This document shows positions 4,255 through 42,080 of a stretch of DNA of 64,000 nt, in pieces (position 1 is the first letter of the stretch; each line of letters begins with the position of its first letter). This DNA comes from Dictyostelium discoideum (lineage: Eukaryota), in contig CM000151.3 of NCBI GenBank assembly GCA_000004695.1, forward strand, positions 8,192,001 through 8,256,000, written 5' to 3'. The notes beneath the pieces were generated by a model, which saw nothing but the letters and a program-made list of their open reading frames with translations, was not told the origin of the DNA and did not search any database. A program made the translations under genes and the position numbers.

Positions 4255-6614
4255 AAAAATAAAATTTCAATTACCAAATGAAAAAGAAGATATAATTAAA
4301 ATTTGGGAATACTTTAATAAACACTCCTTTAAACAAATGATACCAAATTATGATATTCTCATTGAATTCCTTTCAAGTGTAACAAATATTATTCCACCTT
4401 TAGAATTGAAAATATCTAATATTAAAGAGCCACTATCTGGAAAACTTGGAACAATTCTATTAATGCAATTATATAAAAAGAATTTAAATGTAATTGAATT
4501 ATTATTAAAAAGTTTTGATAATTTTAATTTTATACATCAACCAGAACAAATGTCAGCTATTGTAGATAAAGAGAGAAATTTATTTCATATTTCTGGCGAA
4601 TTATTCCAAGTTGATAAAAAGTTTAGTTTTCAAATAATCAGAATAATTAAATTGATAATGGACAAGTTTAATAAACTCACTAAAGATCAAATCAATATTG
4701 AAAATATTTCAACAACAACATATCGCCTCTTTTTAAATTATTTATATGATCAATTACTTAGAGTTAAAGGTTTGACAATTGATCAATTAGAATATGTTAG
4801 ATCAATTATTCCTGAACAATTATTAAATAATAATTTTGAAACCTATCGTATCTTTTTCTATCTTAATATCAGATCTTCAAAATTATCAAATTACCTAATC
4901 AAAAGACCTGGAATTACATATTTTATTCGAAATTCAACTGAACTCCTTTATAATAATTTCTACAATACTGCTGAACCAATTACAGATGAAATTATTGGTT
5001 TTGATTTAAGAAAATATTTAAATTTTGAATTATTCACATATGATTATATATTAGGTAGAGAATTAAATCAATATAATAATAGTGGTTGTAGTGGTTGTAG
5101 TGGTTGTAGTAGTAGTAGTAGTAGTAGCAGTAGTAGTGGCGGTGATGATGGTAGAAAAAATAATAAAAAGTATATAACTCAATTCGATACAATATTAAAA
5201 GAATTAATTAAACAATTATCATTCAATATTTGTACCAACTTTAGTGATAGAGATGAAATTGTTTATGGTAAAGATTTCTTTAATCATTCATTAAATGCAG
5301 ATTTTAAATTCAGTTTAGATATTGGTAGAAAAGATTTATTTTGGGAATTATTGATTGGATTCAACAATATATGATTAAAAATGAAAATTTAATGAAACTT
5401 CAAGTTTATCAATTCAATTCACCATATGAATCATTATTACCAACTGGTACAATATTTTCAAATGTAAAAATAATAAAAAAAGAATTACCATCACCATCAA
5501 CAACAACAACAACAATTGAAAGAACTTTTTTAAAAATTGATAATTTTGAAAAACCAATACCTAATAAATCAACGATTAAAGTTAATTGGAATTCAGATAA
5601 ATTAATTCAACTATTCAAACCAATTTCAAAACTTATAAATTCATTTAAATATTCAGATGGTGTTATGGAATCAATTTGTAGAGTAATGAATGTAAATGAA
5701 ATTCAAAGATTTATTCAATATAATTTCTGTGAATCATTTTTTCAAAATGAAATTTATACATATTCAGTATTTTTTAGTAGAGATGATTTAATGTCATTCC
5801 TATTAAATAATTTTAATATTGATATTGATCTTCATTTCCCATCATTTGAACCAAATAGAGGATATTCACAATATTTAGAATGAAAATTCATCTTTGAAAA
5901 TCATTTTGAAAAAGTAAAGAATATTTCAAAAATTAATAACAACCAAAAACAGTTCAAAAGTCGTTGTTTACAATTCCCATTGGTTTTATTAAATTCTTTT
6001 TCTAAATACATTTGTAAAGAAAAGAATATCACAAGATATAATCAATTCATTCAAAATGATAATTTACAAATTAGAAAACAAGTAATTAAAAAAACAATTG
6101 AAATATTAATTGATCAATTCTTATTAAGTGCAGATAATAATGATTATTATGATGATTACGATGATGATGATCAGAATTTTGCATCTATATTAAAAAATAA
6201 AAAACATAAAGTTTCACTCATTCAATCAATTATTGAACAATCCGATACTCAACTATACTTTAAATCAGCTTTAGATCAAATTTTAACGATAGTAGAAGAG
6301 AAAAGAAAATTTATGAAATTAATTCTCCATTCAATGAAAATCCTAGAAATCCATTCTTACAATCTTTTATTTTTGGTGATATTAAAACTTGTAATATCAT
6401 TCTTAAATATTATCCAAATCAATTCAAAATCACTAAAGATTCAATCACTGAAACATTAAAAATGGAAAATATTAATATTATTAAATATTTTTATAAAGTT
6501 GAAAATTGTAAAAATTTAATTAATAATTTTAAAAATGATAATAATTTATTAAAACATTTAAAAAACGAATTGTCAAAACATCCAATGTATAAATATCATT
6601 TAACTTGGTTATAA
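4255..6614 (+). pseudogene. Family copy 2, pseudogene. It lacks the N-terminal ~600 codons: homology starts at FQLPNEKEDIIKIW. There are at least 2 frameshifts (ORF pieces 4172-5374, 5341-5883, 5980-6459) and an in-frame stop after ...YSQYLE; it ends in HPMYKYHLTWL*.
   Basis: Collinear protein similarity to the intact copies, broken across three reading frames. The upstream part of the first ORF (MIKEKMIIWFIYFF...) is non-homologous filler. Confidence 0.8.
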
Positions 6615-6673
6615 AAAAAAATAATAAAAACAATTAAAATAACAATTAAATAAAAATAGTCCTATTTGTTTAG

Positions 6674-6704
<31 letters not shown>

Positions 6705-6850
6705 TATATTGTAAAAACACTAGTGTTTAAAAGTTAATTTTATAGGTCAATTTTTTTTTTTTTAATTTTATTTTTTATTTTTTATTTTCATTTTTTTTTT
6801 TTTTTTTTCTAATTTTTCATTTTCATTTTTATTATTTTTTTTTTTTTAAA

Positions 6851-9800
6851 ATGAGTGATAAAACAGAAATATTATTTTGGAAAGTTTTTAAAAATCAATA
6901 TTTATTCAACAAGATATTTAATCAAATTCACAACAATGAATGGATTGAATATGATGAACCAAATAAATATAATGTTTACAATAGATGTAAATTTGGAGAC
7001 ACTCACTCTTTGGTAATAATGATAAAAAATGATCTACTCCCATTAATTAAAGATAAAATCAAACATGGTGATCATATAGAAATTAATACTTTTTCAATAA
7101 AAGATCTTTTCTCAAAATTATCAACAGACCCATTAATTGATAATAAAAATAAAAATAAAAATAAATATAAAGATGAAGATTATTTAGAAATTATTGAATT
7201 ATTAATGAAAAATAGAAGAGATGATTTTGAAATTACTGATTTAATATGTATAGCAGCAGCCACTCGTTCTCCAGATGTTATTAGATTATTAGTTAATGAA
7301 CCATATTCAGTTGTAATTTATCCAAAAATATTTGAATTTGCAATTATGTATTCAAATTTAGCAACAATCAAAGAACTAATAAATTTAGAATCAATAAATT
7401 TTAAAAACTATGGTATTAAATTAATCAGTGAAGAATTTAAAAGAAAATCATTATCATTAGCAGTACATAGAACAACTCTTAAAACTACAATCACTGAATA
7501 CATTTTTAATAACCCATCATTATATTCAATACCACCACCATTATCATTATTAAATAATCAACAAAAACAAGAGCAACAAACACAATCAACAAATAAAAAA
7601 TTAAAAACATTTGAAACTTTACATCCAAATTTAAAAAATAACAGCAATAATAATAATAATAATGATAATGAAGAAATAAAGTACGAATATATTAAATTTA
7701 AAGATTTTATAAAATTAAAATCAAGTAATTTATTAAAATCATTTATGAAATTAGATATAGTAGTTTTAAGTGAAACTAAAACAAATTTTAATTCATTTCT
7801 TAAAATGTATCATCCATATGAAAGATTACAAGTTGGTATTAAAATTATTCTAAAGTATGATAATACAATTTCAGATATAAAAAAAAGAGAAGAAATTTTA
7901 GAAGAAATCAATAAAATTGATAGAAGTAATGAAACAGGTTTTAATAAATTAAAAGAATTGAGAAAATTAGTAGCAATAGAATTCCCAAATCAAATAAACT
8001 TTTATTTCTTTTATTGGAAAGCATATCGTGAGAAAATTAAAAAACTTGGTAAAGTTCCTTATAAATCAGGTTCTCATATTAATACACAAACTTTTGGACA
8101 CCTTCTTTTACAAGATGAATTAACCAATTATCAAACCAATACTCAAAAAGGTGATAAAAATATAGAACAAGTAGAATTATTATCATATATTACATATTCA
8201 GATAGTGAAAGTGAAAATGAAGTCGAAGAAGACACAATAATTGAAAAGGAATTATCTAATTTCTCTAATAGATTTAGAAATGCAACAGTTTTTGATATAT
8301 CAAATAGGTATTCAAATTTACTCAATTCATATTTAAAAGCAATTAAAGAATGTAATATTGAAAAATTAGAAAGGATTGATACAAATAATCCAATGTTTAA
8401 ATTAGATGTTTCAAAATATCATTGTTTTCAATTACCAAATGAAAAAGAAGATATAATGAAAATTTGGGAATACTTTAATAAACACTCCTTTAAACAAATG
8501 ATACCAAATTATGATATTCTCATTGAATTCCTTTCAAGTGTAACAAATATTATTCCACCTTTTGAATTGAAAATTTCAAATATTAAAGAGCCACTATCTG
8601 GTAAACTTGGAACAATTCTATTATGGCAATTATATAAAAAGAATTTTAATATAACGGAATTATTATTAAATAGTTTTGATAATTTTAATTTTATATATCA
8701 ACCAGAACAAATGTCAGCCATGGTAGATAAAGAGAGAGTTTTATTTCTTCGTAATGGTGAATTATTCCAAATTGATAAAAAGTTTAGTTTTCAAATAATC
8801 AGAATAATTAAATTGGTAATGGACAAGTTTAATAAACTCACTAAAGATCAAATCAATATTGAAAATATTTCAACAACAACATATCGTCTCATTTTAAATA
8901 ATTTATACGATCAATTACTTAGAGTTAAAGGTTTAACAATCGATCAATTAGAATATGTTAGATCAATTATTCCTGAACAATTATTTAATAATAATAGTTT
9001 TGAAACCTATCGTATCTTTTTCTATCTTAATATCAGATCTTCAAAATTAACAAATTACATAACCAAGAGACCTGGAATTACAAGTTTTATTGATAATTCA
9101 ATTGCATTCTCTAATCATTTCTACAATAGTACTGAACCAGTTACAAATGAAATTATTGGTTTTGATTTAAGAAAATATTTAAATTTTGAATTATTCACAT
9201 ATGATTATATATTAGGTAGAGAATCAAATCGATATAGTAGTGGTTTTAGTGGTGGTGGTAGTAGTAGTGGTTATGATGATGGTAGCAAAAATAATAATAA
9301 AAAGTACATAACTCAAGTAGATACAATATTAAAAGAATTAATTAAACAATTATCATTCAATATTTGTACAAACGTTAATAATAGAGATAATATTGTTAAG
9401 GGTGATGATTTCTTTAAACATTCATTAAATGCAGATTTAAGATTCAGTTTAGATATTGGTAGAAAAGATTTATTTTGGGAATTATTAGATTGGATTCAAC
9501 AATATATGATTAAAAATGAAAACTTAATGAAACTTCAAGTTTATCAATTTAATTCACCATATGAATCATTATTACCAACTGGTACAATATTTTCAAATGT
9601 AAAAATAATAAAAAAAGAATTACCATCACCACCAAAAGCAGCAACAGAAACAATAACAACAATTGAAAGTACTTTTTTAAAAATTGATAATTTTGAAAAA
9701 CCAATACCAAATGAATCATCAGTTAAAATCGATTGGAATTCAGATAAATTAATTGAAGCATTCAAACCAGTTTCAAAACTAATAAATTCATTTAAATATT

Positions 9801-10750
9801 CAGATGAAGTTATGGGTTCAGTTTGTAAAGTAATGAATGTAAATGAAATTCAAAGATTTATTCAATATAATTTCTTTGAATCATTTTTTCAAAATGCAAT
9901 TTATAAATATTCAGTATTTTTTAGTAGAGATGATTTAATGTCATTCCTATTAAATAATTATAATATTGATGTTGATTTCCCATTATCCAAACCAGATAGA
10001 CAATATTCACAATATTTAGAATGTAAATCCATCTTTGAAAATCATTTTGAAAAAGTAAAGAATATTTCAAAATTAAAACAGTTCAACAGTCCTTATTTAC
10101 AATTCCCATTTGTTTTTTTAGATTCTTTTTTTAAATACATTTGTAAAGAAAATAATATCACAACATATAATCAATTCGTTCAAAATTATAATTTACAAAT
10201 TAGAAAACAAATAATTAAAGAAACAATTGAAATACTAATTGGTAGATTCTTATCAGATACAAATGATGATGATGATAATGATGATTATGATGATGAAGAC
10301 CCTAATCAGAATTTTGCATTTATATTAAAAAATCAAAAATATAAAGTTTTACTCATTCAATTAATTATTGAACAATCAGATACTCAATTATACTTTAAAT
10401 CAGCTTTAGATCAAGTTTTATTAAAATTAAAAGAAGATAGAAAAAATTATGAAATTAATTCTCCATTCATTGAAAATCTTGAAAATCCATTCTTACAAGC
10501 TTTTATTAATGGTGATATTAAAACTTGTAATATCATTCTTAAATATTATCCAAATCAATTCAAAATAACAAAAGATTCAATCACTGAAACATTAAAAATG
10601 GAAAAAATTCATATTATTAAATATTTTTATAAAGTTGATAATTGTAAAAATTTAATTAATAATTTTGAAAATGATAATAATTTATTAAAACATTTAAAAA
10701 ATGAATTATCAAAACATCTAGTTTATAAATATCATTTAACTTGGTTATAA
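6851..10750 (+). CDS. Family copy 3, intact, 1299 aa (MSDKTEILFWKVFKNQYLF ... HLVYKYHLTWL*).
   Basis: Single 3.9 kb ORF beginning at an ATG that aligns with the MSDKTEIL starts of the other copies. Upstream is a poly-A/T-rich promoter-like region. Confidence 0.85.
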   Translation: MSDKTEILFWKVFKNQYLFNKIFNQIHNNEWIEYDEPNKYNVYNRCKFGDTHSLVIMIKNDLLPLIKDKIKHGDHIEINTFSIKDLFSKLSTDPLIDNKNKNKNKYKDEDYLEIIELLMKNRRDDFEITDLICIAAATRSPDVIRLLVNEPYSVVIYPKIFEFAIMYSNLATIKELINLESINFKNYGIKLISEEFKRKSLSLAVHRTTLKTTITEYIFNNPSLYSIPPPLSLLNNQQKQEQQTQSTNKKLKTFETLHPNLKNNSNNNNNNDNEEIKYEYIKFKDFIKLKSSNLLKSFMKLDIVVLSETKTNFNSFLKMYHPYERLQVGIKIILKYDNTISDIKKREEILEEINKIDRSNETGFNKLKELRKLVAIEFPNQINFYFFYWKAYREKIKKLGKVPYKSGSHINTQTFGHLLLQDELTNYQTNTQKGDKNIEQVELLSYITYSDSESENEVEEDTIIEKELSNFSNRFRNATVFDISNRYSNLLNSYLKAIKECNIEKLERIDTNNPMFKLDVSKYHCFQLPNEKEDIMKIWEYFNKHSFKQMIPNYDILIEFLSSVTNIIPPFELKISNIKEPLSGKLGTILLWQLYKKNFNITELLLNSFDNFNFIYQPEQMSAMVDKERVLFLRNGELFQIDKKFSFQIIRIIKLVMDKFNKLTKDQINIENISTTTYRLILNNLYDQLLRVKGLTIDQLEYVRSIIPEQLFNNNSFETYRIFFYLNIRSSKLTNYITKRPGITSFIDNSIAFSNHFYNSTEPVTNEIIGFDLRKYLNFELFTYDYILGRESNRYSSGFSGGGSSSGYDDGSKNNNKKYITQVDTILKELIKQLSFNICTNVNNRDNIVKGDDFFKHSLNADLRFSLDIGRKDLFWELLDWIQQYMIKNENLMKLQVYQFNSPYESLLPTGTIFSNVKIIKKELPSPPKAATETITTIESTFLKIDNFEKPIPNESSVKIDWNSDKLIEAFKPVSKLINSFKYSDEVMGSVCKVMNVNEIQRFIQYNFFESFFQNAIYKYSVFFSRDDLMSFLLNNYNIDVDFPLSKPDRQYSQYLECKSIFENHFEKVKNISKLKQFNSPYLQFPFVFLDSFFKYICKENNITTYNQFVQNYNLQIRKQIIKETIEILIGRFLSDTNDDDDNDDYDDEDPNQNFAFILKNQKYKVLLIQLIIEQSDTQLYFKSALDQVLLKLKEDRKNYEINSPFIENLENPFLQAFINGDIKTCNIILKYYPNQFKITKDSITETLKMEKIHIIKYFYKVDNCKNLINNFENDNNLLKHLKNELSKHLVYKYHLTWL

Positions 10751-10751
10751 A

Positions 10752-10812
10752 TAAAAATAATAAAAACAAATAAAAACAAATAAAAATAAATAAAAACAAA
10801 TAAAAAAACAAA
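10752..10812 (+). terminator. (AAATAAAAAC)n-like reiterated AATAAA motifs immediately 3' of the stop. A similar array lies at 16120-16185 after copy 4. Putative polyadenylation signal cluster.
   Basis: Tandem aaataaaaacaaataaaaacaaataaaaat directly after the TAA of two different copies. AATAAA is the canonical poly(A) signal. Confidence 0.3.
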
Positions 10813-11386
10813 TAAAAGATTGTGATAATTTTAATCTTGAATAATCCTAAATTAGAATTTTTTAATTTTTTGAAATTATATTTTAATATGATTATATTAT
10901 TGATAGCTAAATAATTATTTTAAATTTGTTAATCTGAAGAACCTAAAACCGATGGTGCCATTTAACCTTGGCCAAATTCATGATTACGGAGTGCTAAAAC
11001 CTGTGCTTCACCTAATGCGCCCCCCAGTTATTTGCAATGCATGGTAACCTAATTGGAATGCCTATAACTTGATAATGCATCCACCACTTTATTAACACCA
11101 ACATAACTACATTGATTGATTATTGGATCCAATAACTGTTATAACTGATGAAGCTAAAATGAAATTAATTATTTTCCAATTAGGTTTAATCGTAAATAGT
11201 AACAAAGTATCTGGGGATATTGTTATCTTTTTCTTTTGAACATACTGTTACAAATGAATCCTTTTGATGCACACCACTTTCACCATCAATACCTTCGAAA
11301 TTTAAATTATTATTTTCAATTAAATAAAAAATAGCTAACCTTGGACCAAATAAATTAATTAATTGTTTTTCACAATTTTCATTATT

Positions 11387-11417
<31 letters not shown>

Positions 11418-11481
11418 TTATTTTTATTATTATTTTGATAAATTAAATTTGAAATTAATTTTAAAAATTTCTCTATATTTT

Positions 11482-11745
11482 TTAAAGTGAATAAAACATT
11501 TTTTTTAATTTGATTATAAATGTTGGTGCAACTCTAGTTATAATATTTGAAAATTCACAACCAATCTCTGCATTATTAATATCGTCTGTGTGATTAATTA
11601 TTTCTGTGTGATAATAATCTACAATATATTTCATTTTTTCAAAAGTATATTTGAATAATCTTTGAAGTCTTGAATCTTTACTACCACTACTACCACTACT
11701 ACTTTCAATATTGGTAATGCTATTAGTCATGATTTTCAAGTTCAA
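11482..11745 (-). CDS. Candidate non-family small gene on the minus strand (MTNSITNIESSSGSSGSKDSRLQRLFKYTFEKMKYIVDYYHTEIINHTDDINNAEIGCEFSNIITRVAPTFIIKLKKMFYSL*). Further minus-strand coding-like sequence continues downstream to about 11170 (...NCEKQLINLFGPRLAIFYLIENNNLNFEGIDGESGVHQKDSFVTVCSKEKDNNIPRY...), possibly as a second exon.
   Basis: An 87-codon ORF starting at an ATG in a compositionally distinct, less AT-rich segment (10920-11750). The downstream open frame is separated by an AT-rich stretch that could be an intron or a frameshift. Confidence 0.3.
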   Translation of the reverse strand: MNLKIMTNSITNIESSSGSSGSKDSRLQRLFKYTFEKMKYIVDYYHTEIINHTDDINNAEIGCEFSNIITRVAPTFIIKLKKMFYSL

Positions 11746-12054
11746 ACACTGTTTTTATTAATTTCCATGCATATCTTCAATTTTTTTTTTAAATTTTACA
11801 TTTTTATTATTATTATTTTTACAAAAACAACAAGAACAAAAAACCCACAACAAAACATTTAGATTTTTTCGTCCCATATTTTTTGGCTTCTGTTTGTTGG
11901 TTTTTTTTTAGTTTTTTCATTTTTTTTAAATTTTATTGATGCATCTTTTATTTTTTTTTTTTTTTTACGCCAAAAAATAAAAAAAAATTCATGGGTGTTT
12001 ACAAACACTTTTTTACCTTTTTTAATTTTACATTTCTATATCCTTTTTTTTACT

Positions 12055-12822
12055 ATGTGTGATAAAACAGAAATATTATTTTGGAAGGTTTTTAAAAATC
12101 AATATTTATTCAGAGAGATATTTAATCAAATTCACAACAATCAATGGATTGAATATGATAAACCAAATAAATATAATGTTTACAATAGATGTAAATTTGG
12201 AGACACTCACTCTTTAAAAATAATGATAGAAAATGATCTACTCCCATTAATTAAAGATAAAATCAAACATGGTGATCATATAGAAATTACTTATCATTCA
12301 ATAAAAGATCTTTTCACAAAATTATCAACAGAAACATTTTATAAAAATTATAATGAAAATAATAAATATAAAGATGAAGATTATTTAGAAATTATTGAAT
12401 TACTAATGAAACATAGAAGAGATGAATTTGAAATTTATGATTTAATAAATTTAGCAGCAGTCACTGGTTCTCCAGATGTTATTAGATTATTAGTTAATGA
12501 ACCATATTCAGTTGTAATTTATCCACAAACATTTGAATTTGCATTTGTGGTTTCAAGTTTAGAAACAATCAAAGAACTAGTAAATTTAGAATCAACAAAT
12601 TTTAAAAATTATGGTATTAAATTAACTAGTGAACAATTTAAAAGAAGAATATTATCATTTGTAACTCAAAGATTATATCTTAAAACTTCAATCACTGAAT
12701 TCGTTTTTAATAATCCATCATTATATTCAATACCACCACCATTATCATTAGTAAATAATCAAAAACAAGGACAACAAACACAATCAACAAATAAAAGATT
12801 AAAAACTTTAGATTCAAATTTA

Positions 12823-12903
<81 letters not shown>

Positions 12904-14557
12904 GATAATGATAATGATAATGATAATGATAATGATAATGATAGTGATAGTGATAATGATGATGAAGAAATAAAGTATGGATATATTAAATTAAATGAAT
13001 TTATAAAATTAAAATCAAGCAATTTATTAAAATCATTTATGGAATTAGATATAGTAGTTCCAAGTGAAACTAAACCAAATTTTAATTCATTTCTTACAAT
13101 GTACCATACATATGAAAGATTACAAGTTGGTATTAAAATTATTCTAAAGTATGGAGATACAATTCCAGAAAAAAAAAGAGAAGAAATTTTAGAAGAAATC
13201 AATAAAATTGATAGAAATAATGAAACAGGTTTTAATAAATTAAAAGAATTGAGAAAATTAGTAGCAATAGAATTCCCAAATCAAAAAAACTTTTATTTCT
13301 ATTATTGGAAAGCGTATCGTGAGAATATCAAAAAACTTGGTAAAGTTCCTAATAAATCAGGTTCTCCAAATAATAATATGGAAACTTTCGGATTCCTTCT
13401 TTTAGAAGACGAATTAATTAATAATGAAACCAATACTCAAGAAGGTGACGAAAATATAGAACAAGTAGAATTATTATCATATATTACATATTCAAATAGT
13501 GATGATGAAAATGATCTTGGAGGAGAAGACATAATAAATGAAAAGGAATTATTTAATCCATTTAATAGATGTAAAAATGCAACATTTTTTGATATATCCA
13601 ATAAATATCCAGATTTACTCAATTCATATTTAAAAGCAATTAAAGAATGTAATATTGAAAAGTTAGAAAGGATTGATACAAATAATCCAATGTTTAAATT
13701 AGATGTTTCAAAATATCATTGTTTTCAACTACCACATGAAAAAGAAGATATAATGAAAATTTGGGAATACTTTAATAAACACTCCTTTAAACAAATGATA
13801 CCAAATTATGATATTCTCATTGAATTCCTTTCAAGTGTAACTAATATTATTCCACCTTTTGAATTGAAAATATCTAATATTAAAGAGCCACTATCTGGAA
13901 AACTTGGAACAATTCTGTTAATGCAATTATATAAAAAGAATTTTAATATAACGGAATTATTATTAAATAGTTTTGATAATTTTAATTTTATACATCAACC
14001 AGAACAAATGTCTGATATTATAGATCGAGAGAGATTTTTATTTCATATTTCTGGCGAATTATTCCAAATTGATAAAAAGTTTAGTTTTCAAATAATTAGA
14101 ATAATTGAATTGATAATGGACAAGTTTAATAAACTCACTAAAGATCAGATCAATATTGAAAATATTTCAACAACAACATATCGTCTCATTTTAAATCATT
14201 TATATGATCAATTACTTAAAGTTGAAGGTTTAACAATTGATCAATTAGAATATGTTAGATCAATTATTCCTGAACAATTATTTAATAATAATAGTTTTGA
14301 AACCTATCGTATCTTTTTCTATCTTAATATCAGATCTTCAAAATTATCAAATTACCTAATCAAAAGACCTGGAATTGAGTATTTTATTCAAAATTCAACT
14401 GGATTCTTAAATCATTTCTACAATACTATTGCACCAACCACAAATGAAATTATTGGTTTCGATTTAAGAAAATATTTAAATTTTGATTTATTCACTTATG
14501 ATTATATATTAGGTAGAGAATCAAATCAATATAGTAGTGGTAGTAGTAGTATCAGTA

Positions 14558-14588
<31 letters not shown>

Positions 14589-16116
14589 AAGTAGTGGTAG
14601 TAGAAGTGGTGGTGGTGGTAGCAGTAGTAGTAGTAGTGGTGATGATGGTAACAAAAATAATAATAAAAAGTATATAACTCATGTAGATACAATATTAAGA
14701 GAATTAATTAAACAATTATCATTCAATATTTGTACAAACCTTAGTAATAGAGATGAAATTGTTGATGGTAAAGATTTCTTTAATCATTCATTAAATGAAG
14801 ATTTAAAATTCAGTTTAGATATTGGTAGAAAAGATTTATTTTGGGAATTATTAGATTGGATTGAACAATATATGGCTAAAAATGAAAACTTAATGAAACT
14901 TCAAGTTTATCAATTTAACTCACCATATGAATCATTATTACCAACTAGTACAATATTTTTAAATGTAAAAATAATAAAAAAAGAATTACCATCACCATCA
15001 GCAACAACAACAATTGAAAGTACTTTTTTAAAAATTGATAATTTTGAAAAACCAATACCAAATGAATCAACGATTAAAGTTAATTGGAATTCAGATAAAT
15101 TAATTGAACCATTCAAACCAATTTCAAAACTTATAAATTCATTTAAATATTCAGACGATGTCTTAAAATCAATTTGTAGAGTAATGAATGTAAATGAAAT
15201 TCAAAGATTTATTCAATATAATTTCTTTGAATCATTTTTTCAAAATGAAATTTATTCATATTCATTAATTTTTAGTAGAGATGACTTATTGTCGTTCCTA
15301 TTAAATAATTATAATATTGAACCTGATTTCCCATTATTTGAACCAAGTAGAAAATATTCACAATATTTAGAATGTAAATTCATTTTTGAAAATCATTTTG
15401 AAAAAGTAAAGAATATTTCAAAATTAAAAGTCAAACAAAAATGGTTCAAAGGTGATGATTTACGATCCCCATCGGTTTTATTAGATACTTTTTTAAAATA
15501 CATTTGTCTTGAAAAGAATATCACAAGATATAATCAGTTCATTCAAAATTATAATTTACAAATTAGAAAACAAATAATTAAAGAAACAATTGAAATACTA
15601 ATTGGTCAATTCATATCAGATGATGGTGATGATGATGAAGATGAGGATGATGATGAAGATGAAGACCCTAATCAAAATTTTGCATCTATATTAAAAGATC
15701 AAAAACATAAAGTTTTACTCATTCAATCAATTATTGAACAATCAGATACTCAATTATACTTTAAATCAGCTTTAGATCAAGTTTTATTAAAATCAAAAGA
15801 AGATAGAAAAAATGATGAAATTAATAATCCATTCATTGAAAATAATAAAAATCCATTCTTACAATCTTTTATTTATGGTGATATTAAAACTTGTAATATC
15901 ATTCTTAAATATTATCCAAATCAATTCAAAATCACTAAGGATTCAATCACTGAAACATTAGAAATGGAAAATATTCATATTGTTAAATATTATTATAAAG
16001 TTGATAACTGTAAAAATTTAATTAATAATTTTAAAAATGATAATAATTTATTAAAACATTTAAAAAATGAATTATCAAAACATCCAATTTATAAATATCA
16101 TTTAACTTGGTTATAA
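12055..16116 (+). CDS. Family copy 4, intact, about 1353 aa from the ATG at 12055 (MCDKTEILFWKVF...). The track ORF begins at an upstream GTG at 11995. C-terminus HPIYKYHLTWL*.
   Basis: The ATG at 12055 aligns with the MSDKTEIL start of the paralogs. There is a long (AAT)n/(GATAAT)n tract at 12820-12960 and an (AGT)n tract at 14540-14640. Confidence 0.85.
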
Positions 16117-16283: not shown

Positions 16284-16432
16284 AATATGTTCCAACACCA
16301 TTTTTTTTTTTAATTTTACATTTTTATTATTATTTTTTTTTTTTAAAAAGTGTGACAAAACATAACTATTATTTTGGAAAGTTTTTAAAAATAAATATTT
16401 ATTCAAAGAGATATTTAATCAAATTCACAACA

Positions 16433-16652
16433 TTTGTTGTTGGGATTTTTTTTTGAATTTTCGCTTTCTAAACGGCAGTGATTTTTTACACTAAAATACA
16501 CTGTTTATACATAGGGTAAAAATTCACTAAATTTTTTTTTTTTTATAATTAAATTAAAAAACATTTTATTTAATCAGAACAATAAAAAACCATTTTTATT
16601 CAGTTATTTGCTTGTTATTTATTTTTTTATAACAAAAAAATTTAGTTTGCGC

Positions 16653-16701
<49 letters not shown>

Positions 16702-16830
16702 TTATTTTTTTCAATTTTTTTTTTATCGAAACAATTTTATTTTATTCCCCAAAAATGAAAATATCAAAAATAAATGAAATAAAAAATTATTTAATATTAC
16801 CTTATTTTTGTGTCTTCGTTACATAAAAAA
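16433..16830. repeat. Left inverted-repeat arm of the inserted element.
   Basis: Reverse-complement match to 18040-18626. This includes identical translated artefact ORFs on opposite strands (MLVIYFFITKKFSLR... at 16608+ and 18449-). Confidence 0.65.
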
Positions 16831-18039
16831 AAAAAAAAAAAAAGAAAAATGCAAAATAAAAAAAAAAATAAAAAAATTTATATTAAAATAAAAAAAAAGG
16901 AAAATAAAAAAAAAAAAAAAAAATAAAAAAAAAAAAAAAAAAATAAAAAAAAAAAAAAAAATTGGCTCAAATCTAACAATTTAAATTGTTATTTAATTCT
17001 TAAACAACAAATAATTGTTTAAAATTAGTTTTTTTATTATTTTGATTAAATAAATTGTTTTTAATTTATAAAAAAAAAAATAGATGGTAAATAGTAGATG
17101 GTAAATAATAGATGGTAAATAAAAAAGTTAATTTTTCAAAATTTTACCATCCAAAAACACCCCCAATTTACCATCAGCTAATACAACTCACACGTTGTTC
17201 ATTTGCTGTTCATTTCATATCAATTTAAAAAACAATAAATAATTTAATTCCCGCTATTTTTTGCGGATTTGCGGAAATGATTTTTTTTAATTTATAAAAA
17301 AATTTGATTTTTTTTATTTAAGACAGATCTTATCAGATTTATAAAATGAGAAAATATAATAGATATCTACTATTTTTGGCATTAAACAAAGATTTCTGAA
17401 TATTCAGAAATAGACAGCGAAACTATCTAATATTGTAAGTGTAACCACGGAGATCGCCACGTGGATTTGCGGCACTTCCTGCTGCTGGTCCCCAGCCATA
17501 TTGGCCGTTTATTGGACGTTGTGAGAGATTTTGGCCTGGTTGTACGATTCCGCCTGATGTCATTTGCTGGGAATAAGAATATATGAGATTTAATTAATAA
17601 ATATACATGATATGATTGATAAAAATAGAACAAATTTTAAATTTTTAAAATTGTACACATACATTAAAGTATAATAATATAATTTGTTAAAAATAATTTG
17701 AAATGTTTTTTTTGAAAAAATTTTTTTGTTAATGTTTTATCAACATTTTTTAAATTAAAAAATAAAAAAAATAAAATTAAAAAATAAAAAAAATAAAAAA
17801 TAAATTTAATTAAATTCCAACATTTTTTAGGGGGGTACCCTCTTTTTTTTATTTAAATATTAATTTTCATTTTTATTATTATTATTATTATTATTAAAAT
17901 TATTATTTTTTTTAGGGGGGGGTACCCTCTTTTTTTTTTATTTTTTTTTTATTTTTTTTATTTTTTTTTTTTATTTTTTATTTTTCTTTTTTTTTTTATT
18001 TTTCTTTTTTTTTTTTTTTTTTTTTTTTCATTTTTTTTT

Positions 18040-18230
18040 TTATGTAACGAAGACACAAAAATAAGTTAATATTAAATAAGTGAACTAAGACACTAATTAT
18101 AGTTGACCCACATTTAAATAATAATAATAATAATAATAATTCTATTAACTCGAGTTTATAATTATAAATAATATAAATACTAAAAATAATTATATAAACA
18201 ATAATGAATACCATAATTAAAATATAAACC

Positions 18231-18270
<40 letters not shown>

Positions 18271-18360
18271 ATTTTTTTCAATTTTTTTTTATCGAACAAT
18301 TTTATTTTATTCCCAAAAATGAAAACAATCGATAAAAAAAAAAATTGAAAAAAATAATTG

Positions 18361-18406
<46 letters not shown>

Positions 18407-18626
18407 GCAAACTAAATTTTTTTGTTATAAAAAAATAAATAACAAGCAAATAACTGAATAAAATTGGTTTTTTATTTTTCTGATTAAATAAATTGTTTTT
18501 TAATTTAATTATAAAAAAAAAAAAAATTTAGTGAATTTTTACACCATGCATAAACAGTGTATTTTAGTGTAAAAATTCACTGCCGTTTAGAAAGCGAAAT
18601 TTCAAAAAAAATTGCCTACAACAACA
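18040..18626. repeat. Right inverted-repeat arm of the inserted element. It is longer than the left arm because of an extra (AAT)n segment and internal segments.
   Basis: Reverse-complement match to 16433-16830. One internal ~50 bp block (caattttttttttatcgaaacaattttattttattccccaaaaatgaaaa) is in direct rather than inverted orientation in the two arms, and is locally flanked by its own small palindrome in the right arm. Confidence 0.6.
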
Positions 18627-21600
18627 ATCAATGGATTGAATATGATAAACCAAATAAATATAATGTTTACAATAGATGTAAATTTGGAGACACTCACTCT
18701 TTAAAAATAATGATAAAAAATGATCTATAAAATCAAACATGGTGATCATATAGAAATTACTGATTCAATAAAAGATCTTTTCTCAACATTATCATCAGAT
18801 CCATTAATTAATAATAATAATAAATTTAAATATAAAGATGAAGATTATTTAGAAATTATTGAATTATTAATGAAACATAGAAGAGATGAATTTGAAGCTA
18901 CTGATTTAATAAATACAGCAGTCATTAGTTCTCCAGATATTATTAGATTATTAGTTAATGAACCATACTCAGTTATAATTTATCCAACAACATTTGAATT
19001 TGCAATTATAAATTCAAATTTAGAAACAATCAAGAACTAGTAAATTTAGAATCAATAAATTTTAAAAACTATGGTATTAGATTAATCAGTGAAGAATTTA
19101 AAAGAAAATCATTATCATTAGCAACTCAAAGAAAAACTTTTAAAACTACAATCACTGAATACATTTTTAATAATCCATCATTATATTCAATACCACCACC
19201 ATTATCATTAATAAATAAACAACAACAACAAGAACCATCAACAAATAAAAGATTAAAACTATCTGAAACTTTAGATTCAAATTTAAAAAATAATGATAAT
19301 GATAATGATAATGAAAATAATAATTATGAAGAAATAAAGTATGGATATATTAAATTAAATAAATTTATAAAATTAAAATCAAGCAATTTATTAAAATCAT
19401 TTATGGAATTAGATATAGTAGTTTTAAGTGAAACTGCAACAGATTTTAATTCATTTCTCAAAATGCACCATACATATGAAAGATTACAAGTTGGTATTAA
19501 AATTATTCTAAAGTATGATAACACAATTTCAGATATAAAAAAAAGAGAAGAAATTTTAGAAGAAATCAATAAAATTGATAGAAATAATGAAACAGGTTTT
19601 AATAAATTAAAAGAATTGAGAAAATTAGTAGCAATAGAATTCCCAAATCAAAAAAACTTTTATTTCTATTATTGGAAATCTTATCGTGAGAATATTAAAA
19701 AACTTGGTAAAATTCCTAAAAAATCAGGTTCTCATATTAATATACAAACTTTTGAACACCTTCTTTTTCAAGATGAAATAAACAATTATCAAACCAATAC
19801 CCAAGAAGGTGATGAAAATATAGAACAAGTAGAATTATTATCATATATTACAGATTCGGATAGTGAAGGTGATAATGATGTTGAACTAGAATATTTAATA
19901 ATTAGAGATGAATTATTTAATTTCTCAAATAGATTTAGAAAAATAACATCAACATTTTGTGATATATCCAATAGATATTCAGATTTACTCAATTCATATT
20001 TAAAAGCAATTAAAGAATGTAATATAGAAAAATTAGAAGAGATTGATACAAATAATCCAATGGTTTAATTAGATGTTTCAAAATATCATTGTCTTCAATT
20101 ACCAAATGAAAAAGAAGATATAATGAAAATTTGGGAATACTTTAATAAACACTCCTTTAAATCTTAATGACCCATTATTTAAAAAACTTGGAACATTTCT
20201 ATTATGGCATTATATAGAAAGAATTTAAATGTAATTGAATTATATTAAATAGTTTTGATGATTTTAATTTTATATATCAACCACAACAAATGGCAACTAT
20301 TTTAGAACGTGAGAGATTTTTATTTAATAATCGTAATGGTGAATTATTCCAAGTTGATAAAAAGTTTAGTTTTCAAATAATCAGAATAATTGAATTGGTA
20401 ATGGACAAGCTTAATAAACTCAGTAAAGATCAAAATAATTTTGGAAATATTTCAACAACTTATCGTCTCATTTTTAATAATTTATATGATCAATTACTAA
20501 GAGTTAAAGGTCTAACAATCGATCAATTAGAATATGTTAGATCAATCATTTTTGAACAATTATGTAATAATAATAGTTATGATACCTGTCGTATCTTTTT
20601 CTATCTTAATATCAGATCTCCAAAATTATCAAATTACATAATCAAAAGAATTACAAATTTTATTGAAAATTCAAATGCATTCTTTAATGATTTCTAAGAT
20701 ACTATTGGACCAACTACAAATGAAATTGTTGGTTTTGATATAAGAAAATATTTAAATTTTGAATTATTAACATATGATTATATATTAGGTAGAGAATTAA
20801 ATCAATATAGTAGTGATTTTAGTGGTGGTAGTAGTAGTAGTATTAGTAGTAGTAGTAGAAGTAGTAGTAGTAGAAGTTGTAGTAGTATTGGTAGTGTTAG
20901 TAGTAGTGGTAGTGTTAGTAGTAGTGGTAGTATTAGTGGTAGTAGTGGTGATGATGGTAGCAAAAATAATAATAAAAAATACATAACTCAATTCGATACA
21001 ATATTAAGAGAATTAATTAAACAATTATCATTCAATATTTGTACAAACCTTAGTAATAGAGATAGAATTGTTAAGGGTAAAGATTTCTTTAATCATTCAT
21101 TAAATGCAGATTTAAAATTCAGTTTAGATATTGGTAGAAAAGATTTATTTTGGGAATCATTAGATTGGATTCAACAATATATGATTAAAAATGAAAATTT
21201 AATGAGGTATCAAGTTTTTCAATTTAATTCACCATATGAATCATTATTACCAACCAGTACAATATTTTCAAATGTAAACATAATAAAAAAAGAATTACCA
21301 TCACCAGCAACGACAACAACAGAAACAACAACAATTGAAAGCACTTTTTTAAAAATTGATAATTTTGAAAAACCAATACCAAATGAATCAACGATTAAAG
21401 TTTATTGGAATTCAGATAAATTACTTGAAGTATTCAAACCAATTCCAAAACTAATAAATTCATTTAACTATTCGGATGAAGTTATGGATTCAGTTTGTAG
21501 AGTAATGAATGTAAATGAAATTCAAAGATTTATTCAATATAATTTCTTTGAACCATTTTTTCAAAATGAAATTTATTCATATTCAGTATTTATGAATAGA

Positions 21601-22541
21601 GAAGATTTAATGTCATTCCTATTAAACAATTATGATATTGATATTGATTTCCCATTATTTCAAGCAAGTACGGAATATTCACAATATTTAGAATGTAAAT
21701 TCATCTTTGAAAATCATTTTGAAAAAGTAAAGAATCTTTCAAATGTCAAACAAAAATGGATCGAAAGTCGTTATTCAGAAATTCCATCGGGTTTATTAGA
21801 TACTTTTTTTAAATACATTTGTCTTGAAAAGAATATCACAAGATATAATCAATTCATTCAAAATGATAATTTACAAATTAGAAAACAAGTAATTAAAGAA
21901 ACAATTGAAATACTAATTGGTCTACTCTTATCAGGTACAGATTACGATGATGAAGACCCTAGTCAGAATTTTTCATGTATATTAAGAAATCAAAAACATA
22001 AAGTTTCACTCATTCAATCAATTATTGAACAACCAGATACTCAATTATTCTTTAAATCAGCTTTAGATCAAGTTTTATTAAAATCAAAAGAAGACAGAAA
22101 AAATGATGAAATTAATAACCCATTCAATGAAAATCTTAAAAATCCATTCCTACTATCTTTTATTTTTGGTGATATTAAAACTTGTAATATCATTCTCAAA
22201 TATTATCCAAATCAATTTAAAATCACTAAAGATTCAATCACTGAAACATTAAAAATGGAAAAAATTAATATTATTAATAAAGTTGATAATTGTAAAAATT
22301 TAATTAATAATTTTAAAAACGATAATAATTTATTAAAACATTTAAAAAATCGATTATCAAATCATCCAATTTATAAATATCATTTAACTTGGTTATAAAA
22401 AATAATAGTAAAAACAAATTAAAACAAATAAAAAATTAAAAAAATAAAAAAACAAAATAAAAAATAATTTCGCAATAAAAAAAATAATAAAAATAATAAA
22501 AATAATTTCACCAATTTTTCACTGTTTTTACATTTTTTTTG

Positions 22542-40523: not shown

Positions 40524-41379
40524 AACAAAATAATAAAAGCAAATTAAATAAAAATAAATAAAAATAATCATTTAACTTGGTTATAAAAAATAATAAAAAA
40601 AATAAATAAAAAAATAAAATTAAAAACAAATAAAAAAAAAAAAAAATAAATAAAATTAAAAACAAATAAAAAATAATTACAAATAAAATAAAACTGACTC
40701 TTTTTCTCACAACAATAATAAAAAAAAAATAAACAAATTCAATTGTTTAGAAAATGTTTGAATTATTTTTTTTTATTTAATTGTGAATTTTAAAAAAAAA
40801 AAAAAAGGAAAGATTACATTTATTTATTTTACTTTTTTATAATTTATTTTATTTATTTATTTATTTTTGGGTTTGAAGTAATATTAGAGTTAATATAATG
40901 ATAATTTCCTGTTATTACACATCATTATTTCATAAACTAAAATCAAATAAATCAATTTATTTATATCATATTAACTCTACAATTTCAATGGTGGTTTATA
41001 AACAGTTTTTATATCTTTATTTTATATAATTTTTTTTTTTTTGTTGATTTATATACATATTATTATGACTTGATAACGTACCATTATTATTATTTTTAAT
41101 AGATTACTTTTACTTTTAAAATACCACTATTACTATGACAATTAATTAATAAAGTACTATTGACACTATTTCACACCACACACTAAGTTTAATTGGTCGT
41201 TCAATTTGATAATATTGTAAACAACAAATGGGTAATAGTAATAGTAATAGTAATAGTAATAGTAATAGTAATAGTAATAGTAATAATCACAAACAATAAC
41301 ACCCAACAAACACAACAGCCGCCACAAATTCGTTGTTGTTGGATTTGATTGTGTTAATCTGAAACAAAACTAACCTGTC

Positions 41380-41950
41380 GAGTTGACAACTGAATCATTT
41401 GAAGTTACAACAAATGGGTATTTATCTGGTTGTGTTGATGTTGCTGTAGTTGTTATGTTGTAGTTGTTGCTGTAGTTGTGCTGTAGTTGTTGCTGTGGTT
41501 GTTGCTGTTGTTGTTGTTGTTGATACAATAATTACTTACTAATAAATGATTGAAATTTAATATCAATATTGGTGATTGTTAACATTTTATTTACCGATAT
41601 CACTTGGTTGTTTGAATCAATCCAAACATGTACCGATTTCATAGAATGGTGATAAACCTAGGTTTTGATTATCAAGTGGTCCTGAAACTGTGAAACATGA
41701 TTTAATAATTGAATCATCTAAAGTTAGAGAGAATGGTGAATATGATGTTTTGACTGGTTAGTATTGATCTGGAATTTTTGTTTCAATACAATAATCACTT
41801 GATGTTCCCCACTTTGAATTGATAATCACCATCTGGATCTGAAGTTGATTAAATAACTTTACCATATTTTTTGGCAAATTACTGGAATACGTCCTATTTG
41901 AGTTGCAACGACGATACAATAATCCCATTTGAATACTGTCTTTCGAAAAA
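41380..41950 (-). CDS. Candidate multi-exon non-family gene on the minus strand. The open pieces are RKTVFKWDYCIVVATQIGRIPVICQKIW; QLQIQMVIINSKWGTSSDYCIETKIPDQY; and PVKTSYSPFSLTLDDSIIKSCFTVSGPLDNQNLGLSPFYEIGTCLD. GTAAAG/GTAAAT donor-like sites are present; the structure is unresolved.
   Basis: GC-richer island. Successive minus-strand ORF blocks are separated by short AT-rich segments beginning with GTAAA. Not similar to the tandem family. Confidence 0.25.
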
Positions 41951-42080
41951 ATTGAAAATTAAAATTAATGGCAAAAAAAAAAAAAAAAATTAAAAATTTT
42001 TTTTTTTTTTTTTTTTTTTTAACTACAAAGTTACATAATTATTAATAATAATTTAATCAAAAAAAAAAAAAAAACAAAAA

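What the first reader, a model, noticed from the sequence alone, without database searches (positions are those of the whole stretch)
16433..18626. 2.2 kb long-TIR element inserted precisely into a gene copy, without an obvious target-site duplication
Pseudogene copy 5 is split exactly between ...caaattcacaaca and atcaatggattgaatat; joined, the two flanks reproduce the intact paralog sequence. The intervening 2194 bp has termini TTTGTTGTTGGG... / ...CCTACAACAACA and arms of about 400 and 590 bp that are reverse complements of each other. Each arm carries a homopolymer run of about 45 nt. No ORF exceeds 90 codons, so the element is non-autonomous. Because of the flanking ACA repeats, a 0, 3 or 6 bp duplication (ACA or ACAACA) cannot be distinguished. 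A true absence of duplication would point to a non-DDE mechanism such as tyrosine-recombinase (DIRS-like) or rolling-circle mobilisation rather than cut-and-paste.
Basis: seen in the sequence. Interest (0 to 1): 0.8.

Follow-up and report, generated by a model that had tools for sequence, protein, structure and literature searches.

The report
Defective Tdd-5 transposon in a pseudogene
The 2.2 kb insert is a defective, internally scrambled copy of the known Dictyostelium DNA transposon Tdd-5, and it does carry the 5-bp target duplication typical of that family, so it is an ordinary cut-and-paste element, not a new kind of mobile DNA.

Summary
The insertion is real. The flanks of gene copy 5 rejoin exactly as in 11 intact paralogous sites, and the insert has about 294-nt terminal inverted repeats that are 95% identical.

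The "no target-site duplication" reading comes from a coincidence. The target (…ACAACA|AT…) resembles the element's own end (…ACAACA).

I fetched eight further ends of Tdd-5 copies from six loci in other Dictyostelium assemblies. Seven begin TGTTGTAGGG and one TGTTCTAGGG. Their flanks are unrelated, apart from one copy whose two flanks mirror each other. This fixes the element at 16435-18623.

With those boundaries the flanks are ACATT and ACAAT, a 5-bp duplication of the ACAAT seen in every empty site, with one substitution. A full Tdd-5 and a Tdd-4 nested inside it (locus L009) show perfect 5-bp duplications (CCTTT, ATATA) at the same kind of boundary. The literature also reports 5 bp and TGTNR termini for this group.

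The arms are 91-95% identical to Tdd-5 5' ends. The left arm keeps the first 13 codons of the integrase-like transposase.

Inside are two truncated Tdd-5 3' arms facing each other and an 862-bp unrelated core. The core holds a 46-codon ORF that D. discoideum AX4 annotates at least four times.

Verdict: a non-autonomous Tdd-5 (Ginger2/TDD) derivative moved by a DDE transposase. Interest is low.

The parts
16348..16434 (+). 5' stub of host gene copy 5 (pseudogene). The start codon position reads AAG and codon 6 is a stop. The stub ends inside codon 29.
   Evidence: Alignment of the first 50 codons of 10 paralogues; flank matches to paralogues.
16430..16434 (.). Left copy of the 5-bp target-site duplication, ACATT. 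It has one substitution relative to the ancestral ACAAT.
   Evidence: All 11 empty sites read ...CACA ACAAT CAATGG. Boundary fixed by cross-copy termini. Coordinates checked.
16435..16729 (+). Left terminal inverted repeat, of the Tdd-5 5' type. It starts TGTTGTTGGG and contains a T42 run.
   Evidence: 94.6% to the right arm. Window 16433-16794 is 94.5% to the L009 Tdd-5 5' end and 90.9% to that of L010.
16730..16793 (+). Tdd-5 5' leader and the first 13 codons of the transposase (ATG at 16755, MKISKINEIKNYL). The frame then runs 10 unrelated codons to a stop at 16824-16826.
   Evidence: Compare P0006 (MKQQKINEIKNYL) and P0011 (MKQSKINEIKNYL). DNA match to L006 up to 8040 and to L009 up to 6555. 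Translation.
16787..17080 (+). Inner part of a Tdd-5 3' arm in the orientation expected for a right end. It is cut off about 101 nt before the 3' terminus.
   Evidence: 84-91% to L009 13655-13899, 87.8% to L004 11340-11075 and 88.9% to L007 9475-9669.
17081..17942 (.). Core 'E': 862 bp with no similarity to any Tdd-5 or Tdd-4 copy fetched. It contains 3 x TAGATGGTAAAT and 2 x AGGGGGGTACCCTC motifs and a stretch at 17430-17570 that is visibly richer in G+C than its surroundings.
   Evidence: No matches in L003-L010. The 765 nt that L002 covers are 100% identical. Repeats.
17423..17563 (-). 46-codon ORF, identical to D. discoideum AX4 hypothetical proteins DDB_G0269070 and DDB_G0294605. It has at least 4 GenBank accessions on 3 contigs.
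   Evidence: No credible homologues among 1.84 billion representatives. No Pfam hit.
17943..18236 (-). Second Tdd-5 3'-arm fragment, inverted. It covers about 220 to 500 nt from the 3' terminus.
   Evidence: 87.4% to L009 13780-13500 and 89.6% to L004 11194-11495.
18236..18390 (.). Local palindrome (foldback junction). A direct-orientation copy of the 5' leader up to ATGAAAA (ATG at 18319) sits in the loop, flanked by T31 and A42 runs.
   Evidence: Self inverted match 18236-18390 at 85%. Sequence read. Homopolymers. ATG checked.
18329..18623 (-). Right terminal inverted repeat, also of the Tdd-5 5' type. It ends ...GCCTACAACA.
   Evidence: Window 18348-18626, which also includes the first three bases of the right TSD copy, is 95.3% identical to L010 2529-2259. 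Window 18248-18624 is 88% to L009 6568-6199. Its subterminal sequence matches the 5' arm, not the 3' arm, of L009.
18624..18628 (.). Right copy of the 5-bp target-site duplication, ACAAT.
18624..22398 (+). Remainder of host gene copy 5. It is broken by stops and frameshifts. The other assembly annotates it as two separate genes.

Best explanation
The insert (16435-18623, 2189 bp) is a non-autonomous, internally deleted and rearranged derivative of Tdd-5. Tdd-5 is a Dictyostelium discoideum DNA transposon of the Ginger2/TDD group.

It encodes no transposase of its own; only the first 13 codons survive. It would therefore have been moved in trans by the Tdd-5 transposase, a retroviral-integrase-like DDE enzyme with an H2C2 zinc finger and an rve core. 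That enzyme recognises the roughly 294-nt terminal inverted repeats and cuts at the TG...CA termini. It joins them to target cuts staggered by 5 bp, and gap repair then produces a 5-bp duplication.

Here the target was ACAAT in codon 29 of one copy of a tandemly repeated gene. The left copy of the duplication has since changed to ACATT.

Both outer ends are 5'-type Tdd-5 ends in inverted orientation. Inside lie two truncated 3' arms facing each other, a foldback junction, and 862 bp of unrelated DNA. So the element looks like two deleted Tdd-5 copies placed tail to tail around foreign DNA.

Shown here: the insertion, the homology to Tdd-5, the termini, the 5-nt surplus, and the internal map.
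Inferred: mobilisation in trans, movement of the composite as one unit, and the origin of the rearrangements (most likely faulty gap repair or template switching at homopolymer runs).
For: 1. Precise insertion relative to 11 empty paralogous sites.
2. Eight further ends of Tdd-5 copies from L004, L005, L006, L007 (both ends), L008 and L009 (both ends). Seven begin TGTTGTAGGG and the left end of L009 begins TGTTCTAGGG. Outside L007, homology stops exactly there and the flanks are unrelated. A further Tdd-5 5' end in L010 also begins TGTTGTAGGG, next to an unrelated flank.
3. These arms lie directly next to genes that are Tdd-5 transposase. The published TDD5 fragment is 99-100% identical in L009 and 98-100% in L010, and 90% identical to P0006. 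P0024 has Integrase_H2C2 and rve.
4. The window arms are 91-95% identical to D. discoideum Tdd-5 5' ends over 279-363 alignment columns, including the leader and the first 13 codons.
5. With boundaries set by those copies, the occupied site exceeds the empty site by exactly 5 nt: ACATT against ACAAT, 4 of 5 identical. The chance of 4 or more matches out of 5 is 0.046.
6. A full Tdd-5 in L009 has a perfect 5-bp duplication CCTTT. A Tdd-4 nested in it has a perfect ATATA, both at TGTT(G/C)T...ACAACA boundaries.
7. The literature reports 5-bp duplications for TDD-4 and TDD-5, TGTNR termini, and a 297-bp TIR for TDD-5 (PMC2836005).
Against: - The duplication is imperfect (one mismatch). I could not examine a second copy of this exact derivative.
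- The core E has no Tdd-5 homology and its origin is unknown.
- One Tdd-5 copy (L007) has flanks that are inverted repeats of each other for 59 nt and shows no duplication. Not every copy is therefore a clean integration product.
- All Tdd-5 copies seen in the sister assembly are interrupted by other elements. An active transposase source was not demonstrated.
Confidence: 0.88

Rival explanations
1. The composite did not move as one piece. A simpler deleted Tdd-5 inserted here, and the foreign core E, the inverted 3'-arm fragments and the hairpin arose afterwards in place. The causes would be nested insertion, inverted duplication, or gene conversion between the arms.
For: - Dictyostelium transposons nest in one another. 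L009 shows a Tdd-4 inside a Tdd-5, and L006 and L008 show Tdd-5 gene fragments (not shown to be interrupted) next to genes with reverse-transcriptase domains.
- L007 shows that one end plus its flank can be copied onto the other end.
- The internal breakpoints lie in homopolymer runs.
Against: - The right terminus is a 5'-type arm joined exactly to the duplication. A change in place would have had to replace a 3' end without disturbing that junction.
- No duplication flanks E.
- The 46-codon ORF of E is annotated identically at least 4 times on 3 AX4 contigs, so E is itself dispersed.
Confidence: 0.3
2. One reading: the element makes no target duplication and moves by a non-DDE route (tyrosine recombinase / DIRS-like, or rolling circle).
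For: Taken alone, the junction can be read as a clean insertion with zero duplicated bases.
Against: - That reading needs asymmetric ends (TTTGTTG... against ...CAACAACA). It places 2 + 3 flanking bases inside the element that the other Tdd-5 ends (L004-L010) do not share.
- The arms are Tdd-5 arms next to an integrase-type gene.
- Perfect 5-bp duplications are seen in relatives.
- No recombinase or Rep ORF is present.
Confidence: 0.02
3. The element, or its core E, belongs to another catalogued D. discoideum family (thug-S, thug-T or DDT) and merely shares or has acquired Tdd-5 ends.
For: - E is unrelated to Tdd-5 and is multicopy.
- thug elements are poorly described in the papers I could read.
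Against: - None of the 13 small RNAs in Table 2 of PMC4894637 maps anywhere in the window. The paper's thug-S-derived RNA (miRNA-like_D3) is not among them under that name, so this bears on thug-S only if it is the table's miRNA_can_D3.
- DDB_G0269070 is named only 'hypothetical protein' in the source names returned.
- No reference sequence was available, so this remains untested.
Confidence: 0.1

Closest known systems
Tdd-5 (TDD-5, AF298206) of Dictyostelium discoideum, Ginger2/TDD group of DNA transposons
   Same: - Terminal sequence TGTTGT(A/T)GG...
- TIR of about 294 nt, against 297 published.
- 91-95% DNA identity of both arms to Tdd-5 5' ends.
- Retained leader and first 13 codons of the transposase.
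- 5-bp target duplication.
- Fragments of the 3' arm inside.
   Different: - 2.19 kb instead of 3.78 kb.
- No transposase.
- Both outer ends are 5'-type ends.
- The two 3' arms are truncated and face each other.
- There is a foldback junction.
- 862 bp of unrelated DNA replace the coding region.
Tdd-4 (TDD-4) of D. discoideum
   Same: - The same first 16 nt of the terminus (TGTTGTAGGGAATTTT).
- 5-bp duplication.
- The same transposase family.
   Different: Beyond 16 nt the Tdd-4 arm (…CCATAAAATTTCACTACAGTAGCG) is unrelated to the window arms.
Non-autonomous derivatives and composite or 'macro' transposons of other cut-and-paste families (Ds of Ac, Pack-MULEs, foldback-type elements)
   Same: Works the same way. 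Intact ends and no enzyme, so it depends on a transposase supplied in trans. It carries foreign DNA between the ends and has long inverted arms.
   Different: It belongs to a different superfamily (integrase-like DDE). Capture of host DNA is not proven, because the source of the core is unknown.
DIRS-1 and Helitrons
   Same: Only the superficial appearance of an insertion without a duplication.
   Different: - No tyrosine recombinase or Rep/helicase.
- True terminal inverted repeats are present.
- A 5-bp duplication is present.
- The termini are TG...CA.

Membership tests
Tdd-5 family (non-autonomous derivative), Ginger2/TDD | Terminal repeats homologous to Tdd-5. The usual TE family criterion is at least 80% identity over at least 80 bp of the terminal region. 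| tested here: met
   91-95% over 279-363 alignment columns to arms that directly flank Tdd-5 transposase genes in L009 and L010. 82-84% to L004-L007, and 75-79% to L008.
Tdd-5 family (non-autonomous derivative), Ginger2/TDD | Termini follow TGTNR ... (TG...CA) | tested here: met
   TGTTG at 16435 and CAACA at 18623. The boundary is supported by eight further ends of Tdd-5 copies, plus one more 5' end in L010. The rule comes from PMC2836005.
Tdd-5 family (non-autonomous derivative), Ginger2/TDD | 5-bp target-site duplication | tested here: met
   The surplus over the empty site is exactly 5 nt, ACATT against ACAAT (4 of 5). Perfect CCTTT and ATATA are seen in relatives. 5 bp is the published length.
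Autonomous Tdd-5 | Encodes the integrase-like transposase (H2C2 zinc finger plus DDE/rve core) | tested here: not met
   Only 13 codons remain. tblastn with the TDD4 and TDD5 fragments finds nothing in the window. The element is therefore not an autonomous member, only a derivative.
DIRS-like (tyrosine-recombinase) retroelements | Tyrosine recombinase and reverse transcriptase genes, plus insertion without a target duplication | tested here: not met
   No ORF longer than 89 codons. A 5-bp duplication is present.
Helitron (rolling-circle) elements | No terminal inverted repeats, 5'-TC...CTRR-3' ends, and insertion between A and T without a duplication | tested here: not met
   TIR of about 294 nt at 95%. 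The ends are TG...CA.
thug-S / thug-T / DDT elements of D. discoideum | Sequence identity to the catalogued consensus (Glockner et al. 2001; Repbase) | not testable with these tools
   The describing paper and the consensus sequences are not held. The only indirect test was that the small RNAs of PMC4894637 Table 2 do not map.

The most novel reading that the evidence does not exclude
The 2.2 kb unit may be a mobile composite, not a one-off wreck. In this reading, two deleted Tdd-5 copies lie tail to tail and use their two 5' ends as a new pair of termini. Together they have captured and spread an 862-bp foreign segment to several chromosomes. That segment's 46-codon ORF is annotated at least four times in AX4. 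If so, this would be a 'Pack'-type transduplicating family driven by an integrase-like (Ginger2/TDD) transposase in an amoebozoan.
Probability: 0.3. Interest if true: 0.4.

Novelty: new member of a known kind. Interest (0 to 1): 0.2.

Why it matters
Mostly as a correction. An apparent duplication-free insertion, which would have pointed to an unusual transposition chemistry in Dictyostelium, comes from 6 bp of chance similarity between the target and the element's end. Comparison with other copies is what resolves it.

There is also a modest positive result. Tdd-5 is reported as very rare (copy number at least 1 in PMC2836005; two occurrences listed in dictyBase according to PMC3386910). This shows it has left at least one non-autonomous, rearranged derivative that carries foreign DNA. 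That is useful for repeat annotation of D. discoideum. It also flags the small gene models DDB_G0269070 and DDB_G0294605, whose ORF at this locus lies inside a transposon and which may therefore be transposon cargo.

Tried and rejected
- Rfam scan of 16300-18800 at E<=1: no match.
- RNA folding of the G+C-richer stretch 17400-17600 on both strands: z = -1.05 and -0.44, so no structure.
- Exact-pattern scans with a 20-nt TIR core. In metagenome contigs the single hit is a G+C-rich bacterial chance match (L001). In GTDB genomes there was none. These collections hold no Dictyostelium DNA.
- Contig look-ups returned 'not on record' for the 46-aa ORF (P0001), for the upstream paralogue (12055-16116) and for the AX4 protein P0028. 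I therefore could not retrieve the other AX4 loci that carry the ORF.
- Mapping of 13 published Dictyostelium small RNAs to the window: none map.
- The papers describing thug, DDT and Tdd-5 (Glockner 2001), Tdd-4 (Wells 1999), the genome paper and Avesson 2012 are not held.
- L003 (P0005, a more distant Tdd-like transposase) shares no arm sequence with the element.
- A phmmer search of the 46-aa ORF against 1.84 billion representatives returned only bacterial repeat proteins at 32-44% identity, judged spurious.
- I looked for the second junction of the L004 Tdd-5 using the empty-site copy in a 696-nt inverted duplication. It was not within the locus.
- A permissive BLAST mapping with the low-complexity filter off was too noisy to use.

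Full report
**Setting.** The window has about 22% G+C and consists mostly of a tandem array of units roughly 4.1-4.9 kb long. Each unit encodes an orphan protein of about 1,240-1,400 residues with no Pfam match. One intact paralogue is found, residue for residue, in the NCBI assembly GCA_054883475.1 on a 4.89-Mb contig. Proteins of that assembly are named Dictyostelium discoideum. A small ORF inside the finding is 100% identical to D. discoideum AX4 proteins. The organism is therefore D. discoideum.

**Checking the observation.**
- BLAST of the flanks against the window shows that the sequence left of 16432 and right of 18627 continues without interruption in 11 other units.
- Printed side by side, the rejoined flanks of copy 5 read ...TTCACAACA|ATCAATGG..., exactly like the intact sites. 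The insertion is real and precise, and none of the other units contains it.
- The two ends are inverted repeats: 16434-16729 against 18624-18329, 298 alignment columns at 94.6%.
- A global alignment shows that the match runs from the terminus to the motif TATCGA, about 294 nt. Each arm contains a 42-nt homopolymer.
- The longest ORF is 89 low-complexity codons.
- Copy 5 is dead in its own right. Its start codon reads AAG, codon 6 is a stop, and the frame breaks repeatedly. The insertion lies in codon 29.
- The description therefore holds, with one exception. The arms are not simply 400 and 590 nt of mutual complement.

**Identifying the element.**
- The literature held here says that D. discoideum DNA transposons fall into the Tdd, DDT and thug families (PMC5633606).
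- It also says that Tdd-4 and Tdd-5 belong to the Ginger2/TDD group. These encode a Gypsy-integrase-like DDE transposase, have TGTNR termini, make 5-bp duplications, and have TIRs of 260 and 297 bp (PMC2836005).
- No tool holds Dictyostelium DNA searchable by nucleotide sequence. I therefore took the TDD4 and partial TDD5 protein sequences from that paper's alignment file, searched the protein collection, and fetched the encoding loci from new NCBI Dictyostelium assemblies.
- P0006, P0010, P0011 and P0002 are Tdd-5 orthologues, 76-96% identical to the published fragment.
- P0024 is a 650-aa Tdd-5 transposase with Integrase_H2C2 above Pfam's threshold and rve at E = 3e-5.
- In every Tdd-5 locus, the window element's arms match right next to the transposase gene:
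  - upstream of the start codon in L005, L006, L007, L008, L009 and L010;
  - downstream of the stop codon in L004.
- Identity is 94.5% (L009) and 90.9% (L010) for window 16433-16794. It is 95.3% (L010) for window 18348-18626, the right arm plus the three flanking bases.
- The left-arm match runs through the leader into the first 13 codons. The window reads MKISKINEIKNYL from an ATG at 16755, while the transposases read MKQ(S/Q)KINEIKNYL.

**Termini and target duplication.**
- Eight further ends of Tdd-5 copies come from L004, L005, L006, L007 (both ends), L008 and L009 (both ends). Seven begin TGTTGTAGGG and the left end of L009 begins TGTTCTAGGG. The base before them varies, and outside L007 the flanks are unrelated. 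A further Tdd-5 5' end in L010 also begins TGTTGTAGGG, next to an unrelated flank.
- The two ends in the window start TGTTGTTGGG and TGTTGTAGGC. They align without gaps from base 1 only when the element is taken as 16435-18623.
- With those limits the flanks are ACATT on the left and ACAAT on the right, and every empty site has ACAAT once. The occupied site is thus exactly 5 nt longer than the empty site, and 4 of those 5 nt match. The chance of 4 or more out of 5 is 0.046 at this base composition.
- One substitution in ten duplicated bases is unsurprising, given that the arms themselves have diverged by 5%.
With the left limit at 16433, any exact duplication from 0 to 6 bp fits.
- Direct support comes from L009. 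A full Tdd-5 (6200-14000) is flanked by a perfect CCTTT. A deleted Tdd-4 nested in its ORF (10300-12041) is flanked by a perfect ATATA. In both cases the boundaries are of the TGTT(G/C)T...ACAACA type.

**Internal anatomy.** In L009 the 5' and 3' arms of Tdd-5 are nearly identical for about 113 nt and then differ. Using that difference, the window element reads as follows.

| Window coordinates | Content |
|---|---|
| 16435-16793 | 5' end, in forward orientation |
| 16787-17080 | inner part of a 3' arm in the proper right-end orientation, cut off about 101 nt short of the terminus |
| 17081-17942 | core with no Tdd homology |
| 17943-18236 | a second 3'-arm fragment, inverted |
| 18236-18390 | a foldback whose loop is a direct copy of the leader up to ATGAAAA |
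| 18329-18623 | a second 5'-type arm, inverted |

- These assignments rest.
- The element is therefore built like two internally deleted Tdd-5 copies lying tail to tail. Both lack their 3' termini. Their two 5' ends serve as the working inverted repeats.
- The internal breakpoints fall in or next to homopolymer runs. This fits faulty gap repair or template switching, but that step is inferred.

**The core.**
- It is 100% identical over the 765 nt (17169-17933) that the sister assembly's locus L002 covers. It matches nothing in the roughly 124 kb of transposon-rich loci fetched apart from L002 (L003-L010).
- Its 46-codon ORF (17423-17563, minus strand) equals AX4 models DDB_G0269070 and DDB_G0294605. 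These have at least four GenBank accessions on three contigs, so the core is dispersed in the genome.
- The ORF has no Pfam domain and no credible homologue. Its glycine codons are mostly GGC (5 of 9), as read. The region has no Rfam match and no stable fold.
- I could not retrieve the other loci. Whether they carry the whole composite remains open.

**Mechanism.**
- The best-supported account is ordinary DDE cut-and-paste by the Tdd-5 integrase-like transposase, supplied in trans. It acts on TG...CA termini and makes a 5-bp staggered target cut.
- The tyrosine-recombinase and rolling-circle ideas are contradicted. The element has true terminal inverted repeats, a duplication, Tdd-5 homology, and no such gene.
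- The Tdd-5 copies seen in the sister assembly (L004, L009, L010) are all interrupted, and the arms differ by 5%. The element is probably an old, immobile relic.

**Novelty.**
- The family, its termini and its duplication length are all published.
- A rearranged, cargo-carrying, non-autonomous Tdd-5 derivative is not described in the papers I could read. However, I could not consult the primary repeat catalogue or Repbase, so it may already be annotated.
- I rate it a new member of a known kind, of low general interest.
- One open point is worth a BLAST against the reference genome: does the composite spread as a unit and carry foreign DNA around?

Noticed in passing
window 1-64000: Nearly the whole window is a tandem array of at least 13 units, roughly 4.1-4.9 kb long. 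They belong to an orphan gene family of about 1,240-1,400 aa with no Pfam hit and the N-terminus M(S/T)(D/E)KTEILFWKVFKN.... Several copies are broken into shorter ORFs.
   Followed up: partly
L007 6934-9831: A Tdd-5 copy in D. cf. discoideum has flanks that are inverted repeats of each other for 59 nt beyond the TGTTGT termini (175-nt arms, 97% identical). It shows no 5-bp duplication. It looks as if one end plus its flank was copied in inverted orientation onto the other end.
   Followed up: partly
L009 6200-14000 and 10300-12041: A transposon nest. A Tdd-5 with a perfect CCTTT duplication has a deleted 1.7-kb Tdd-4 with a perfect ATATA duplication inserted in its transposase ORF. Tdd-4 and Tdd-5 share the first 16 nt of their termini.
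   Followed up: yes
L004 6735-7430 and 10276-10971: A 696-nt inverted duplication (98% identical) whose right arm ends exactly at the 3' terminus of a Tdd-5. The left arm continues into what looks like the uninterrupted target (…GATCAC|TCAATTTT…).
   Followed up: partly
window 17081-17180 and 17823-17937: The foreign core carries TAGATGGTAAAT three times, with two inverted TTTACCATC nearby. It also carries TTTT(TT)AGGGGGG(G)TACCCTCTTTTTTTT twice, 87 nt apart. The G-rich motif occurs nowhere else in the window or in the other fetched loci, apart from the same locus in L002.
   Followed up: partly
window 40700-42080: The array is interrupted by about 1.4 kb of different, G+C-richer sequence (27% at 41-42 kb). 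It contains (AGT AAT)n and (GTTGCT)n repeats and looks like a fragment of another gene on the minus strand. A truncated 93-codon copy of the family gene follows.
   Followed up: no
L002 (GCA_054883475.1, JBTAPE010000033.1 4573114-4597271): The same insertion is present at the same locus in this second D. discoideum assembly. The covered part of the core is 100% identical. The covered part of the element as a whole is 98% identical, the rest of the alignment carrying the mismatches and gaps. The window therefore comes from a different assembly or strain.
   Followed up: partly
L001 (metagenome contig Ga0307472_100202621): The only metagenome hit to the 20-nt TIR core is a chance match in a G+C-rich bacterial contig. 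It is not related.
   Followed up: yes
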